Positions 30,674 to 34,471 of a stretch of DNA of 50,264 nucleotides are shown here, piece by piece. The notes under the pieces are model-generated. The model did no database searches and was not told where the DNA came from. It saw nothing but the letters and a program-made list of their open reading frames with translations. This DNA is from Candidatus Thorarchaeota archaeon. Lineage in GTDB: Archaea; Asgardarchaeota; Thorarchaeia; Thorarchaeales; Thorarchaeaceae. Numbering within the stretch: the stretch's first letter is position 1; each line of letters starts with the position of its first letter. The DNA lies in assembly GCA_048884965.1 (NCBI GenBank), contig JBHLQH010000023.1:1-50264 (forward strand), written 5' to 3'. The position numbers and the translations under genes are program-made.

Positions 30674-31840
30674 TCACCTTGATTCCATGACTGATTCGAA
30701 AACCTTCTCATATTGCGATACGATCTTCTCAGCAGAGAAGTTCTCTTCTACCCTCTTTCTCCCTGCAAGAGCATACTTCTTTCTGAGGGTGTCGTCCTCA
30801 AGGAGGTCTATGACAGCCTGTGCGAATTCATCTCCCTCGTATCCCTTCGTAACCTTGCCATCGATGTTTGGCCTGACAAGTTCTGGAATTCCCCCGGCTG
30901 GAGTGGTCACCACTGGTAGTCTGCATGACATAGCTTCAAGCAAGACCAGCGGCATGCCCTCCTCTGTGGAATTCAAGAGGAAGATGTCAGCTGAGCACAT
31001 GATTTGTTGCATATTGGTCTTTATACCGAGGAGATGGATATTGTTGCAGAGATCAAGTTCCTCGATCTTTCGTTCAACCTCGATTCTGGTTGGCCCATCA
31101 CCTGCTATGATTAGTCTAGCTTTTGGATAGTGGTCTATGACGATTCGCATGAGCTCGACTAGTTCCACAACCCTCTTCACTTTCCTGAAGTTGGATGCAT
31201 GTAGAAGGATCTTCTCATCCGGTGAGATTTCTTTGAGTTCGTCCTCATTTCGGAGGGAAACACATCCGCTTTCAACAGTCAATCTGATCCCATCAAGATG
31301 AGAGAATTTGTCGATGTCAATGAAGTTTGGTATGACATGGATCTCCCTTTCGATGCCTAGATCATCATGTGCCCTTCGACGCAGGTAATCAGAAACACAT
31401 GTCACCGCGTCAGCCCTTTCCACAGTATGTTTTACGACAGGCTGGTAAGCTGGGTCTAGTCCAAGTGTATGTACATCTGAGCCATGCAAGGTCACTACAT
31501 ATGGAGTTCCGGTGATCTCCCTTGCCATATAGCCTGCCATCGCATGAGGTATTGCATAATGGGAATGAATCAGGTCTAGCTTGGAGTCCTTGATGACCTT
31601 CACCATCTTGGATGTCAATGCCATTGTGTATGGAGGTCCAACGCTATTGAAGAGGGGATAGTCGAAGCGATCAACAAGATCAACGTAGACACCTCTTGTC
31701 TGTTCCCACATCAAGGAGAAGGGACGCTGATATGTGATGAAATGGATGATATGGTCCCTTGAAGCAAGATGTTGGCCAAGCCTAGTCGCCAGATATCCGG
31801 ATCCACCAACAGTTGGGTATAAGTTCACACCAATTCTCAC
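30674..31840 (-). CDS. bshA: N-acetyl-alpha-D-glucosaminyl L-malate synthase BshA (GT4)
   Basis: YPTVGGSG, HFITY, HSHYAIPHA, TLHGSD and SNFRKVKRV are BshA-specific; EGMPLVLLEAM is the GT4 motif. Confidence 0.9.
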   Translation of the reverse strand: MRIGVNLYPTVGGSGYLATRLGQHLASRDHIIHFITYQRPFSLMWEQTRGVYVDLVDRFDYPLFNSVGPPYTMALTSKMVKVIKDSKLDLIHSHYAIPHAMAGYMAREITGTPYVVTLHGSDVHTLGLDPAYQPVVKHTVERADAVTCVSDYLRRRAHDDLGIEREIHVIPNFIDIDKFSHLDGIRLTVESGCVSLRNEDELKEISPDEKILLHASNFRKVKRVVELVELMRIVIDHYPKARLIIAGDGPTRIEVERKIEELDLCNNIHLLGIKTNMQQIMCSADIFLLNSTEEGMPLVLLEAMSCRLPVVTTPAGGIPELVRPNIDGKVTKGYEGDEFAQAVIDLLEDDTLRKKYALAGRKRVEENFSAEKIVSQYEKVFESVMESR

Positions 31841-31890: not shown

Positions 31891-31951
31891 GGTTAGGACA
31901 ACATTCAAAGCTGCCAAACGTTGATTAGAGGCTGATTATCACTAATTGCTT

Positions 31952-32620
31952 ATGCCCAGTGATTTGACTTCTTCTATATTGGTCGTGTGTGCTCATCCAG
32001 ATGATGAGAGCCTAGGTGCTGGAGGCACGATTGCTGCTCATACAGGACATGGGATTCCAGTGGATGTCCTCTGTCTTACAGCCAATGATACACGAAAGTC
32101 TGAGCTGGAAGCAGCCTGCAAAACTCTTGGAGTTAGAGAAGTCTATGTTGGGATAAGAGATGACTTTGCCATTGATATGACCCTTCGAGATGAGGTCATT
32201 AAAGTGATTCTCAAATCCCGACCAACAGTCATAATCACACATTCTACTGATGACTACAATCTGAATCATGTTCAATGCTCGGACCTTGTAAGCCAATCTG
32301 CAGAGTGGGCTTCACATGTCACAATCTATGAGGACGCACACAAGGTAGAACGGATCTATCATATGGAGGTCAATAGCCTTCTATCACGACCTCAGGTGTT
32401 TGTAGACATTACAGATTCCTATGATGTTGCTGTTCAGGCACTAGGCCAGCACAAGTCACAACTGAAGAAAGCTGACTCATTCTACACAAAGTTCTATGAC
32501 GCCCGTACAAGGTTACGTGGTGTACAGGCAGCATGCGCTAGGGCTGAAGCATTCACGATAGAGATTCCGTTTCACGTAGGTCCATTCTATCCACATAATA
32601 GCGTGAAACAGCTCATCTAA
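31952..32620 (+). CDS. bshB: PIG-L-family deacetylase, probable BshB
   Basis: AHPDDE...GGT, RKSE (RxxE), H.SQ and RG...AEAF; divergent from bshA. Confidence 0.8.
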   Translation: MPSDLTSSILVVCAHPDDESLGAGGTIAAHTGHGIPVDVLCLTANDTRKSELEAACKTLGVREVYVGIRDDFAIDMTLRDEVIKVILKSRPTVIITHSTDDYNLNHVQCSDLVSQSAEWASHVTIYEDAHKVERIYHMEVNSLLSRPQVFVDITDSYDVAVQALGQHKSQLKKADSFYTKFYDARTRLRGVQAACARAEAFTIEIPFHVGPFYPHNSVKQLI

Positions 32621-33024
32621 TCACTTGTTTCAGTCGCACCATCGGCCTTTGTCCTTCGTGCTGCGAGGAGTGCCTTGAGCTCTCCCATCATACTCATTCC
32701 ACCACCTGCACCAGCTGGCTTTGGTGATGGAGCCTTGGCGATTGGTGCAGAAGCCATGGCAGGTGCAGCATCTGCTGCCGCTGATGGGCCACCTGATATT
32801 GAGGCTCCAGAGGCAATTCTACTACCTAGCGAATCGATCCTTGAATCCAATGCAGAGACTTGGCCTTCGATTTCTTCAAGCCGCTTCTCAAGCGATCCAA
32901 AGGCGTCAATGAGCTTTCCAGTGATGATACTCACCACTTCTCCAAGCTGTCTTAGCTTCTCTTCGGTGGGATCTTTCAATGCCCATTCGAATTCTTCCAT
33001 AATGAAATCGTCGTCGTCGCCCAT
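32617..33024 (-). CDS. Coiled-coil protein with Pro/Ala linker and basic amphipathic C-terminal helix; candidate WAVE/WASH/VASP-like actin regulator
   Basis: MGDDDDFIMEEFEW...RQL...DAFGSLEKRLEEIEGQVSALDSRIDSL...PSPKPAGAGGGMSMMGELKALLAARR. GAGG lies upstream of the ATG at 33024. The CDS is well supported; the function is inferred. Confidence 0.6.
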   Translation of the reverse strand: MGDDDDFIMEEFEWALKDPTEEKLRQLGEVVSIITGKLIDAFGSLEKRLEEIEGQVSALDSRIDSLGSRIASGASISGGPSAAADAAPAMASAPIAKAPSPKPAGAGGGMSMMGELKALLAARRTKADGATETSD

Positions 33025-33094
33025 CTGATAAGCCTCTGACTCAATCAAAATTTGTGTAAATTCGCTATAAAGATTACCTGCATGACATAATTAT

Positions 33095-34471
33095 CTAATT
33101 TGGTCCAATTACTTCCTCGACTGTCTTCTTGGCGCGTTCTAGGATGCTCTCGACCAATTCCTGTGTGGGCGCCTCGCAGGTTATTCTGATTACAGGCTCA
33201 GTACCTGAGGGTCTCACAAGTACCCAGCCTTCCGAGAGTGAGATGCCTAGACCATCCACTGTTAAGACCTCTTGGACATCTCCCATTGCATCAGGCAACT
33301 TCTCTTGTAGAATCAGCATGACTTCTGCTTTCCTCTCATTGGGAACCTTGAGCTTGTATTTCTTCAATGGATAGATTGGTATCGCCGCAATTAGCTCACC
33401 AAATGACTTGTTGGTCATTGCCATCATTTCCAAGACCTTGCATGCCGCAAGGAAAGGCTCTGGCGCCAAGTGAAATTCTGGAAACACATACACTCCACAG
33501 GCTTCGCCACCATGGGACGCTCCAGTTTCTTTGATTTTCAGTGAGACCTGGATATCGCCTACCGGAGTTCTTTCAGTCCTCCCTCCTGCTCTTGTAACAG
33601 CTTCATCTAGGACCTTTGAGCTATCCACTGTCGTTACTATCGTTTTCGATGGGCTCGACTTCAATGATTCGATGGCGAACAGGGTTATTGTGCGATCCCC
33701 TCTGATCACTTCACCTGTTTCGGTTACGAACACGACACGATCAGCATCTCCGTCATGCGCAATTCCAAGGTCGGCGTTGGTATCCTTGACTAGTTTGATG
33801 AGGTCTCCCAAGGACTCCTCTTCAGGTTCGGATTTTCTTCCTGGGAAGTGACCATCAAGCTGTCCATTGATGGTGATGACCTTGCATCCTAATTGTCGCA
33901 TCAGGTATGGTGTGAGAACACAGGCTGACCCGTTCCCTGGGTCTACGATGACTCGATAGTTCTTCTCTCTGATTCGTTTGGCATCGCATTGGTGCAGAAG
34001 GTTCGAGATATGAATCTCTGCAGCATCTTCCAAGTGTGATATAGTACCTATGCGATCCCAGCTAGCGACCTTGAACTCCTTTGAATAGTAAATCCGCTCG
34101 ATATCTCGTTCCATCTCTGGCGTATAGCCCATGCTATCATGCGCCCAGAACTTCACTCCTGTATACTCTGGAGGATTATGCGAGGCTGTGACCATCAAGC
34201 CAGCAGCCAGACCAAGCTCCTTTGTTATGTACGCCAAAGTGGGTGTGGGGATTATTCCTGCATGTTTGACATGGACTCCAGTTGAGATAATTCCTGCACA
34301 GAGAGCATCCGCGACCATCTGTCCAGTGGTACGTGCGTCTCTGGCAAGAAGCACCATTCCCTCTCCAAGAGACGTTCCAACGGCTTTCCCTAAGTCAAGT
34401 GCCATATCAAGGGTGAATTCATCGCCATACAGCTTCCTTACACCTGTCGTACCAAAGAGCTTGCCCGTCAT
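33095..34471 (-). CDS. glmM: Phosphoglucosamine mutase / phosphomannomutase
   Basis: LFGTTGVR, TASHNPPEY (phospho-Ser), DGDADR, GGE..G, RPSGTEP. Confidence 0.9.
   Translation of the reverse strand: MTGKLFGTTGVRKLYGDEFTLDMALDLGKAVGTSLGEGMVLLARDARTTGQMVADALCAGIISTGVHVKHAGIIPTPTLAYITKELGLAAGLMVTASHNPPEYTGVKFWAHDSMGYTPEMERDIERIYYSKEFKVASWDRIGTISHLEDAAEIHISNLLHQCDAKRIREKNYRVIVDPGNGSACVLTPYLMRQLGCKVITINGQLDGHFPGRKSEPEEESLGDLIKLVKDTNADLGIAHDGDADRVVFVTETGEVIRGDRTITLFAIESLKSSPSKTIVTTVDSSKVLDEAVTRAGGRTERTPVGDIQVSLKIKETGASHGGEACGVYVFPEFHLAPEPFLAACKVLEMMAMTNKSFGELIAAIPIYPLKKYKLKVPNERKAEVMLILQEKLPDAMGDVQEVLTVDGLGISLSEGWVLVRPSGTEPVIRITCEAPTQELVESILERAKKTVEEVIGPN

What the first reader, a model, noticed from the sequence alone, without database searches (positions are those of the whole stretch)
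32653..32706. C-terminal helix matches the VASP FAB / WASH 'C' actin-binding consensus
Seen: GGGMSMMGELKALLAARR(TKA) directly after a flexible linker. From memory, VASP FAB is [19 protein letters not shown] and the WASH central region is GGxLMSDLFNKLVMRRKG. The shared pattern is a Gly run, then hydrophobic-M-x-E/D-L/M-x-x-x-L-x-x-R-R. This signal is independent of the coiled-coil match. Inference: an oligomerising coiled coil plus this helix could act as a multivalent actin binder or bundler, like Ena/VASP.
Basis: partly seen in the sequence, partly recalled or inferred. Interest (0 to 1): 0.8.

Follow-up and report, generated by a model that had tools for sequence, protein, structure and literature searches.

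The report
Pan-Asgard protein with VASP-like tail
This small gene belongs to an undescribed protein family found across Asgard archaea; its near-invariant end helix measurably resembles the actin-filament-binding motif of human VASP, making it a good but unproven candidate for an actin regulator beyond profilin and gelsolin.

Summary
Window 32653-32706 (- strand) encodes GGGMSMMGELKALLAARR, near the C-terminus of a 135-aa protein (ATG 33024, own TATA box and GAGG). The predicted structure is a short helix, a long confident helix, a disordered Ala/Pro/Gly linker, then a terminal helix.

The helix is the most conserved part of the protein. [LM]MGELKxLLAARRxK is almost invariant in 127 Thor-lineage homologues. 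A profile finds the family in 312 of 400 Asgard genomes. I saw the same layout in ten family-level lineages, many with true polyproline linkers and the tail Rxx[IL][MQ]xELKxLFx[KR][KR][KR]. The cassette also ends Arf-like GTPases and HEAT-repeat proteins.

Human VASP FAB (sequence checked in PMC10340426) scores 20.2 bits ungapped against the motif profile. No other window among 1.2 million in this genome exceeds 5.3 bits.

It is not a recognisable WH2 or Ena/VASP member. There is no Pfam or PDB hit, and canonical WH2 and N-WASP C peptides score negative. The probable L. ossiferum orthologue is expressed but not enriched in a published Lokiactin co-IP.

Actin binding remains an inference (about 0.4). 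The WASH sequence could not be verified.

This scan found the same family earlier in other genomes. The searchable literature does not describe it.

The parts
32617..33024 (-). Gene of the 135-aa family member (ATG 33024-33022; stop 32619-32617). The mechanical ORF starts at TTG 33048, but homologues begin at MGDDDDFI.
33066..33071 (-). TTTATA box-like hexamer, about 47 nt upstream of the ATG, in the 70-nt gap after the upstream phosphohexomutase gene (stop at 33095-33097).
   Evidence: Read directly from the sequence. Its function is inferred.
33033..33036 (-). GAGG Shine-Dalgarno-like element, 8 nt before ATG 33024.
   Evidence: Read directly from the sequence. Its function is inferred.
32890..33003 (-). 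Conserved N-terminal block (residues 8-45: I.EEFEWAL.DP..EKLR.LG.VVSIIT.KL..A). The same pattern (EEF...L......P..EK...L..V...I) recurs across the phylum.
32812..32964 (-). Long helix or coiled coil (residues 21-71, pLDDT 80-93), with hydrophobic residues at 4,3,4,3 spacing from L45 to I70. The oligomeric state is not determined.
   Evidence: The whole-family profile mostly hits trimeric coiled coils in PDB.
32692..32811 (-). Disordered Ala/Pro/Ser/Gly linker (residues 72-111; about 18% Pro in the 34-residue stretch measured; no PPP run in this copy). Other Thor copies have a PPP run. Loki-type copies have runs of four or more prolines (PPPPPG-type in several). f11 has GLPPLPG.
32653..32706 (-). 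The finding as given: GGG + MSMMGELKALLAARR (residues 107-124).
32641..32691 (-). Near-invariant C-terminal helix motif (residues 112-128: MMGELKALLAARRTKAD). It aligns without gaps to human VASP FAB ([14 protein letters not shown]).
32620..32640 (-). Short, variable, mildly acidic tail (GATETSD). It is poly-Asp in Loki-type copies and Trp + acidic (KKGW[DSA]E[ED]) in lineage f11.

Best explanation
The gene encodes a member of an undescribed, nearly pan-Asgard family of small adaptor proteins.

Shown:
- A conserved N-terminal helix and coiled coil (an oligomerising scaffold) carries a flexible, proline-rich arm of variable length.
- The arm ends in a short, almost invariant basic helix.
- The whole cassette is portable. 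It also forms the C-terminus of Arf-like GTPases and HEAT-repeat proteins, and the Pro-rich stretch plus motif sits inside a membrane-anchored protein.

Inferred:
- The terminal helix is a ligand peptide for actin, used like the FAB block of Ena/VASP. It would either lie in the subdomain 1/3 hydrophobic cleft or bind the acidic filament surface through its Arg/Lys cluster.
- Because the scaffold oligomerises, several such helices act together. They could gather actin subunits (nucleation), hold filament ends (processive elongation or anti-capping), or cross-link filaments (bundling).
- The polyproline tracts of the non-Thor copies could additionally recruit profilin-actin.
- In this Thor copy the linker is only weakly proline-rich. 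Here the simplest reading is a multivalent filament binder or bundler.
For: 1. Conservation. Residues 112-128 are nearly invariant in 127 homologues while the linker drifts. E-L are invariant and K is at least 90% conserved across 31 sequences from ten family-level lineages.
2. Distribution. 312 of 400 Asgard genomes hit with a Thor-only profile, including 81 of 85 in the window's own family. An exhaustive search of 1.84 billion representatives gave only this family plus three low-complexity false hits. Source names are Thorarchaeota or Promethearchaeota, with one Bathyarchaeota label, and Atlas clusters are 76-99% Archaea.
3. This genome has a true actin (445 bits) with the cleft motifs LSLYASGRTTG and IGGSILASLxTFQxMW intact. 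It also has gelsolins.
4. VASP FAB scores 20.2 bits ungapped over 16 columns. The best non-self window among 1,214,734 in this genome scores 5.3 bits.
5. Context is like eukaryotic actin-assembly factors. A Pro-rich or polyproline stretch lies directly upstream (PPPPPGR x3 in the L. ossiferum-like copy; GLPPLPG in f11). Tails are acidic, and in f11 a conserved Trp + acidic end resembles the N-WASP CA tail printed in PMC5609757.
6. The motif is modular, like WH2-type peptides. It occurs on Arf-like GTPases (L078, L082, L083, L086, L098), HEAT proteins (P0137-P0139) and a TM-anchored protein (L097).
7. There is an archaeal precedent. The C-terminal helix of arcadin-2 binds crenactin's hydrophobic groove (PMC5173319).
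8. The helix has a low hydrophobic moment (0.1-0.25 in most copies), which fits a protein ligand better than a membrane anchor.
Against: - No actin binding was tested, and these tools cannot co-fold two chains.
- There is no Pfam WH2 hit and no significant PDB hit for the motif, as a single sequence or as a profile.
- HMMER's bias-corrected score for VASP FAB is only 4.8-5.4 bits, so its significance depends on the null model chosen.
- The invariant L and K of ELK are M and N in VASP.
- Canonical WH2, VASP GAB and N-WASP C peptides score -37, -43 and -8.9 bits.
- The probable L. ossiferum orthologue (inferred to be GNAMCCOK_02219) is detected in all 16 proteome samples. It is absent from the stored Lokiactin co-IP rows, which run from log2 +10 down to -1.06.
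- Loki and Odin profilins were reported not to bind VASP polyproline (PMC8410842), yet Loki-type copies have the strongest polyproline tracts.
- There is no gene linkage to actin, profilin or gelsolin.
- Domain order is the reverse of VASP, with the coil at the N-terminus.
Confidence: 0.4

Rival explanations
1. The terminal helix is a docking peptide for a conserved Asgard partner other than actin. Candidates include a small GTPase, an ESCRT/Vps4 MIT-type domain, or another trafficking component. On this reading the protein is a multivalent tether, and the likeness to VASP FAB is convergence between basic amphipathic helices.
For: - The cassette is fused to Arf-like GTPases and HEAT-repeat scaffolds, which are not obviously actin proteins.
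- The probable L. ossiferum orthologue is not enriched with Lokiactin.
- The invariant E-L-K triad is not shared with VASP FAB.
- There is no WH2 or PDB hit.
- There is no synteny with actin genes.
Against: - No alternative partner is indicated by any test.
- By my hand alignment from memory (not a tool result), the motif fits the ESCRT MIM1 pattern (D/E)xxLxxRLxxL(K/R) at only about 3 of 5 key positions.
- The 20-bit match to FAB, together with an upstream polyproline stretch and acidic or Trp-acidic tails, is an unusually specific combination.
Confidence: 0.35
2. The terminal helix packs back on the N-terminal helix or coiled coil, either of the same chain or of a neighbouring oligomer. This would give autoinhibition or head-to-tail assembly. 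The helix would then be a structural part of the cassette rather than a ligand for another protein.
For: - The N-module and the C-helix travel together in the stand-alone, GTPase-fused and HEAT-fused forms.
- Both ends are much more conserved than the middle.
Against: - The linker varies from 13 to 97 residues.
- In L097 the Pro-rich stretch plus motif occurs without a recognisable N-module.
- The AF2 monomer gives the helix only moderate confidence, and pTM is 0.31. No contact map was available.
Confidence: 0.1
3. The helix is a membrane-targeting amphipathic basic helix, like the tails of MinD or FtsA, that tethers the coiled coil to anionic lipids.
For: - It is a C-terminal helix with a basic cluster (net charge +2 to +4).
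- One relative is membrane-anchored (L097).
Against: - The hydrophobic moment is low (0.1-0.25 in most copies) and mean hydrophobicity is at or below about zero.
- An invariant Glu and near-invariant residue identities are untypical of lipid-binding helices, which usually conserve character rather than sequence.
- Many copies have acidic tails directly after the helix.
Confidence: 0.08

Closest known systems
Ena/VASP EVH2 module (human VASP: GAB 223-239, FAB 259-278, tetramerisation coil 343-380; PMC10340426)
   Same: - A Gly run, then an amphipathic helix ending in an Arg/Lys cluster. The alignment to FAB is ungapped over 16 residues at 20.2 bits.
- A proline-rich region lies upstream.
- An oligomerising coiled coil sits in the same small protein, which makes the motif multivalent.
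   Different: - There is no EVH1 domain and no GAB/WH2-like second motif.
- The coiled coil is N-terminal rather than C-terminal, and it looks like an ordinary left-handed heptad coil.
- The invariant ELK is EMN in VASP.
- No family-level sequence homology is detectable.
WH2 domain (Pfam PF02205; N-WASP, WAVE, thymosin beta4) and the WH2-like LKKT-type motifs already described in Asgard gelsolin linkers (PMC7444086, PMC9433394)
   Same: - It is a short helical peptide placed after a Pro-rich stretch.
- It is modular, occurring in several architectures.
- Non-Thor copies have R-x-x-[IL]-[MQ]-x-x-L, which resembles the WH2 helix RxxLLxxI.
   Different: - No L-[KR]-[KR]-[TV] motif follows a linker. 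Instead the basic cluster continues the helix.
- Pfam WH2 gives no hit at E<=10 for 31 C-termini.
- N-WASP WH2 scores -37 bits and VASP GAB -43 bits against the motif profile.
WASP-family CA region (N-WASP 'TSGIVGALMEVMQKRSKAIHSSDEDEDEDDEEDFEDDDEWED'; PMC6201469, PMC5609757)
   Same: - The order is Pro-rich, then an amphipathic helix with Lys/Arg, then an acidic tail.
- In lineage f11 the tail is KKGW followed by acidic residues. In Loki-type copies it is poly-Asp.
   Different: - The N-WASP C helix scores only -8.9 bits.
- The window's own tail has no Trp and is only mildly acidic.
- I did not test whether these genomes encode an Arp2/3 complex.
Arcadin-2 of Pyrobaculum (crenactin regulator; PDB 5LY3; PMC5173319)
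   Same: It is an archaeal protein whose C-terminal helix alone binds the hydrophobic groove of an archaeal actin, which shows this mode of regulation exists in archaea.
   Different: - No sequence similarity was found; 5LY3 was not retrieved by the motif profile.
- Arcadin-2 relies on a Trp and is encoded beside crenactin.
- This family is not linked to the actin gene.

Membership tests
WH2 domain (PF02205) | Match to the family profile | tested here: not met
   hmmscan of 31 C-terminal segments at E<=10 gave no WH2 hit. The whole proteins also gave none.
WH2 domain (PF02205) | LKK[TV]-type motif a few residues after the amphipathic helix | tested here: not met
   The alignment of 31 tails shows the [KR] cluster directly continuing the helix, with no L-[KR]-[KR]-[TV].
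WH2 domain (PF02205) | Helix binds the actin subdomain 1/3 cleft | not testable with these tools
   No two-chain co-folding or binding assay is available. The cleft residues of this genome's actin are conserved.
Ena/VASP (EVH1, Pro-rich region, EVH2) | FAB-like motif | tested here: met
   Human FAB aligns ungapped at 20.2 bits over 16 columns. The best other window in 1.21 million scores 5.3 bits. HMMER's bias-corrected score is only 4.8-5.4 bits.
Ena/VASP (EVH1, Pro-rich region, EVH2) | EVH1 domain and GAB (WH2-like) block | tested here: not met
   Pfam finds no EVH1/WH1 domain. VASP GAB scores -43 bits, and the alignment shows no second motif.
Ena/VASP (EVH1, Pro-rich region, EVH2) | C-terminal tetramerisation coiled coil after FAB | tested here: not met
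   The coil is N-terminal (residues 21-71) and the motif is at the C-terminus. The oligomeric state is unknown; PDB profile hits are mostly trimeric coils.
Ena/VASP (EVH1, Pro-rich region, EVH2) | Proline-rich, profilin-binding region upstream of the actin-binding blocks | tested here: inconclusive
   A Pro-rich linker is present in all copies. True polyproline occurs in the non-Thor lineages, but this copy has no PPP run. Profilin binding was not tested.
WASP-family VCA | Central (C) helix and acidic tail with a conserved Trp | tested here: not met
   N-WASP C scores -8.9 bits. The window's tail GATETSD has no Trp. A Trp + acidic tail is present only in lineage f11.
DUF7310 (PF23991) coiled coil | Score above the curated cut-off | tested here: not met
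   18.7 bits against a cut-off of 40. It is one of many weak coiled-coil hits.
CCDC53/WASHC3 (PF10152) | Score above the curated cut-off in family members | tested here: not met
   Two of 31 members match, best E 7.4e-05. The one seen in detail, L053, reaches 23.7 bits against a cut-off of 24.6. The window's protein does not match.

The most novel reading that the evidence does not exclude
This family is the long-missing Asgard actin-assembly factor: an oligomeric coiled coil whose proline-rich arms recruit profilin-actin and whose FAB-like end helices bind filament ends or monomers. On this reading the FAB/C-type helices of Ena/VASP and WASP-family proteins descend from this archaeal cassette or were anticipated by it. 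In the f11 lineage, the helix-Trp-acidic tail could even engage an Arp-like protein, as a CA region does.
Probability: 0.2. Interest if true: 0.9.

Novelty: new variant of a known kind. Interest (0 to 1): 0.65.

Why it matters
The papers read here name only profilins and gelsolins as Asgard actin regulators. They treat filament polymerases such as formins and Ena/VASP as part of the more complex eukaryotic machinery (PMC13716822, PMC12050087). Yet Asgard cells build dynamic actin-based protrusions and crawl.

A nearly universal, expressed Asgard protein with a coiled coil, a polyproline arm and a FAB-like helix would be a concrete, cheaply testable candidate for the missing nucleator, elongator or bundler. 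It would also bear on whether such peptide modules predate eukaryotes.

If the helix binds something else, it still defines a new portable docking motif shared by Asgard GTPases and scaffold proteins.

Tried and rejected
- PDB searches with the 33-aa tail (no hit at E<=10) and with the motif profile found nothing useful. The best hits were twinfilin-2, pleckstrin-2 and a designed peptide at E 1.3-1.9, which I read as chance.
- Pfam gave only sub-threshold coiled-coil families for whole proteins and nothing for the tails.
- The CCDC53 (WASH subunit) near-hit is confined to two of 31 members. I judged it to reflect coil plus Pro-rich composition.
- ESM Atlas returned only unnamed Asgard clusters and generic long-helix folds.
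- I looked for paralogues or gelsolin fusions in this genome. No second copy of either module exists, and the gelsolin-domain ORFs I read on C49 show no likeness.
- The 'longer' search produced a phosphomannomutase fusion (P0136). I read it as a merged gene call with the upstream neighbour.
- The Arf GTPase that co-purifies with Lokiactin (GNAMCCOK_04696, 38.1 kDa, matched to the L084 ORF) lacks the motif.
- Gene neighbourhood is conserved only within lineages. In Thor the neighbours are a phosphohexomutase upstream and a PIG-L deacetylase downstream. In Loki-type genomes they are an Elf1-like gene and an unknown 200-aa helical protein. I rejected this as functional evidence.
- I considered an ESCRT MIM1 reading by hand alignment from memory; it is a poor fit.
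- Chance or a spurious ORF is rejected by the conservation and by the proteome detection of the probable orthologue.

Full report
**The observation**

The - strand of 32706-32653 reads GGGMSMMGELKALLAARR, followed by TKADGATETSD and a stop. The mechanical ORF (32617-33048) starts at a TTG. The homologues I read that carry an intact N-terminus begin at the equivalent of ATG 33024 (MGDDDDFIMEEFEW). That ATG is preceded by GAGG 8 nt upstream and by a TTTATA hexamer about 47 nt upstream, inside the 70-nt gap after the upstream phosphohexomutase gene. The product therefore has 135 residues.

AlphaFold2 with a 47-sequence alignment predicts helices at 2-17, 21-71 (pLDDT 80-93) and 113-131 (pLDDT about 70-75). 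Residues 77-109 are disordered. 'A helix directly after a flexible linker' is therefore correct.

**Is it more than chance?**

A word-indexed search gave 286 homologues. In nearly every full-length protein among the 120 listed, the tail reads [LM]MGELKxLLAARRxK.

In a 127-sequence alignment two blocks are nearly invariant: residues 8-45 and residues 112-128. The coil is moderately conserved, and the Ala/Pro/Ser/Gly linker drifts in length and sequence. One homologue (P0124) has almost no linker but keeps the motif.

Shuffles expect about 0.

**How wide is the family?**

A single-sequence exhaustive search of 1.84 billion representatives found only about a dozen clusters, plus three low-complexity false hits.

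A profile is much more sensitive. It found matches in 312 of 400 genomes of the phylum, in 73 of 90 high-quality genomes, and in 81 of 85 genomes of the window's own family. The genome carries a eukaryote-like actin (445 bits), and homologues are labelled Thorarchaeota or Promethearchaeota.

I fetched and read members from ten family-level lineages: f1, f2, f11, f14-f17, f19, f21 and f22. The last two include single-contig genomes of 4.36 and 6.04 Mb. All share the layout of N-terminal helix and coil, Pro-rich linker, then C-terminal helix.

Outside the Thor lineage most linkers contain true polyproline. Examples are PPPPPGR three times in the 6.04-Mb genome, GGPPGAPPPPGGPPGG, and GLPPLPG in f11. 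There the tail reads, for example, NPVSLRGAIMGELKELFAKRK, ARMQLQSELKALFSKLRR or IRAQMQGELQSFLARRRAAL. E and L are invariant and K is at least 90% conserved across all 31 aligned tails. ESM Atlas independently links the Thor and Loki clusters. All are unnamed and archaeal.

**The module is portable**

The same N-helix, coil, short linker and motif form the C-terminus of several larger proteins:
- Arf-like GTPases: L078 (...VLNELKELFQKRKK), L082, L083, L086 and L098.
- HEAT-repeat proteins of about 410 aa labelled Helarchaeota or Promethearchaeota (P0137-P0139).

A Pro-rich stretch plus motif also lies inside a 705-aa protein that ends in a transmembrane helix (L097). A small paralogue exists in the 4.36-Mb genome (L099). 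This genome has a single copy, and the gelsolin-domain ORFs I read on C49 show no likeness to the family.

**Comparison with known actin-binding peptides**

I built a 20-column profile from 31 diverse tails and scored published peptides without gaps over 16 columns:

| Peptide | Score (bits) |
|---|---|
| Human VASP FAB | 20.2 |
| The protein's own window | 44.9 |
| Best other window of 1,214,734 in this genome's long ORFs | 5.3 |
| N-WASP C region (printed in PMC6201469 and PMC5609757) | -8.9 |
| N-WASP WH2 | -37 |
| VASP GAB | -43 |

Only 11 non-self windows reach 0 bits or more. The likeness is therefore specific to FAB, not to WH2 peptides in general.

Several cautions apply:
- HMMER's local score for FAB, after its composition correction, is only 4.8-5.4 bits.
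- The invariant L and K of the archaeal ELK are M and N in VASP.
- I could not calibrate the profile on eukaryotic proteomes.
- Pfam WH2 does not hit any tail at E<=10.
- The PDB gives nothing significant.
- The WASH sequence could not be verified.

**Other context**

This genome's actin aligns with yeast and Asgard actins at E below 1e-160. It keeps the cleft segments LSLYASGRTTG and IGGSILASLKTFQKMW. The cleft residue numbering rests on my own knowledge of actin.

The helix has a low hydrophobic moment (0.1-0.25 in most copies) and an invariant Glu, which argues against a lipid anchor.

The whole-family profile mostly hits trimeric coiled coils in the PDB: adhesin stalks, sigma-1, HA2 and fibritin. 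BRICK1 appears at E 0.04. This hints at an oligomer, possibly a trimer, but it is only an inference.

In lineage f11 the tail ends ...ELKEAFARIKKGW[DSA]E[ED]. This is a helix, then Trp, then acidic residues, as in a WASP CA region. Loki-type tails end in poly-Asp.

**Published experiment bearing on the family**

The 6.04-Mb genome fits 'Ca. L. ossiferum'. Its actin position matches the tag of GNAMCCOK_03343 on a linear tag-to-coordinate map. Three further ORF masses match tags: 76.38 kDa for GNAMCCOK_02254 (listed 76.34), 53.86 for 02268 (listed 53.82) and 24.03 for 02218 (listed 24.01).

The family member there (152 aa, 16.14 kDa) directly follows 02218, so it is most probably GNAMCCOK_02219. 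That tag is detected in all 16 proteome samples, with mean log2 intensity 18.5. It does not occur among the stored Lokiactin co-IP rows, which run from log2 +10 down to -1.06; a further 841 rows are cut (bioRxiv 10.1101/2025.11.30.690169, Suppl. Table 2).

The family is therefore probably expressed, but it is not seen enriched with actin under those conditions. The Arf GTPase that is enriched (04696, 38.1 kDa) lacks the motif.

**Literature**

Searches combining Asgard with WH2, VASP, polyproline, nucleation-promoting, or proline-rich plus coiled-coil found no description of this family. 'WH2-like' in Asgard papers refers to the LRRV, LVDV or LKDV motif between gelsolin domains. Arcadin-2 is the one archaeal precedent for a C-terminal helix that binds an actin groove (PMC5173319).

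**Earlier notes of this scan**

The scan had already noted this family in several other genomes, with similar verdicts. Two leads came from those notes:
- That the module is built into GTPases. I confirmed this here.
- That it is built into gelsolins. I did not find this.

**Verdict**

The sequence observation and the FAB resemblance are real, and the motif is under strong selection across the phylum. Membership in the WH2, Ena/VASP or WASP families is not met.

The most likely mechanism, at about 0.4, is a multivalent actin-binding adaptor that works like the FAB-plus-oligomerisation part of VASP. A docking motif for another partner is nearly as likely, at about 0.35.

Noticed in passing
L078:1381-2607 (-), L082:1468-2733 (+), L083:1300-2493 (-), L086:961-2457 (-), L098:190-1614 (+): Arf-like small GTPases of Loki-type genomes carry the family's cassette (helix, coil, Pro-rich linker, ELK-LF-KRK helix) as a C-terminal extension.
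   Followed up: partly
P0137, P0138, P0139 (about 410 aa); L060: HEAT-repeat proteins labelled Helarchaeota or Promethearchaeota end in the same cassette (...STRAALNEELKKVLLKRKIEG).
   Followed up: partly
L103-L124 (lineage f11, 19 of 22 genomes): Long forms of about 200 aa have GLPPLPG-type proline motifs and a conserved end, ...MELKEAFARIKKGW[DSA]E[ED]. This is a helix, then Trp, then acidic residues, the layout of a WASP-family CA region.
   Followed up: partly
L097:664-2778 (+): A 705-aa, largely disordered protein with a C-terminal transmembrane helix holds an internal copy of the Pro-rich stretch plus motif (APPPPGSAPKSPQTLRGGMTEELKTLFSK).
   Followed up: no
L041:3080-3700 (-) = P0140; L037:1878-2579 (-) = P0142: An unannotated, all-helical protein of about 200 aa (no Pfam hit) lies next to the family gene in nine loci of two families (f21, f22). 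Earlier notes of this scan call a neighbour of this kind BAR-like.
   Followed up: no
L056:696-1313 (+) = P0143: An Elf1-like zinc-ribbon protein with an acidic extension lies directly upstream of the family gene in f21 and about 2 kb away in f22. Its probable L. ossiferum tag (GNAMCCOK_02218, 24.01 kDa) is mildly enriched in the Lokiactin co-IP (log2 1.36, adjusted p 0.034).
   Followed up: partly
window 33095-34471 (-), 31946-32620 (+), 30674-31840 (-): In all nine Thor-lineage loci compared, the family gene sits 35-125 bp downstream of a phosphohexomutase gene and converges on a PIG-L-type deacetylase gene. In eight of the nine a further conserved gene follows on the same strand. One database entry (P0136) merges the mutase and the family gene into a single call.
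   Followed up: partly
window 32641-32646 (-), residues 127-128: The residue after the basic cluster is Ser or Thr in 45 of 127 homologues (RRxK[ST][DE]). This loosely recalls the regulatory Thr278 next to VASP FAB, but it is pure speculation.
   Followed up: no
G000:C49:1246-4422 (L070:314-952 and 1114-1692, +): Two tandem proteins of about 190-210 aa have an unknown N-terminal domain and a C-terminal gelsolin domain. They are unrelated to this family.
   Followed up: no
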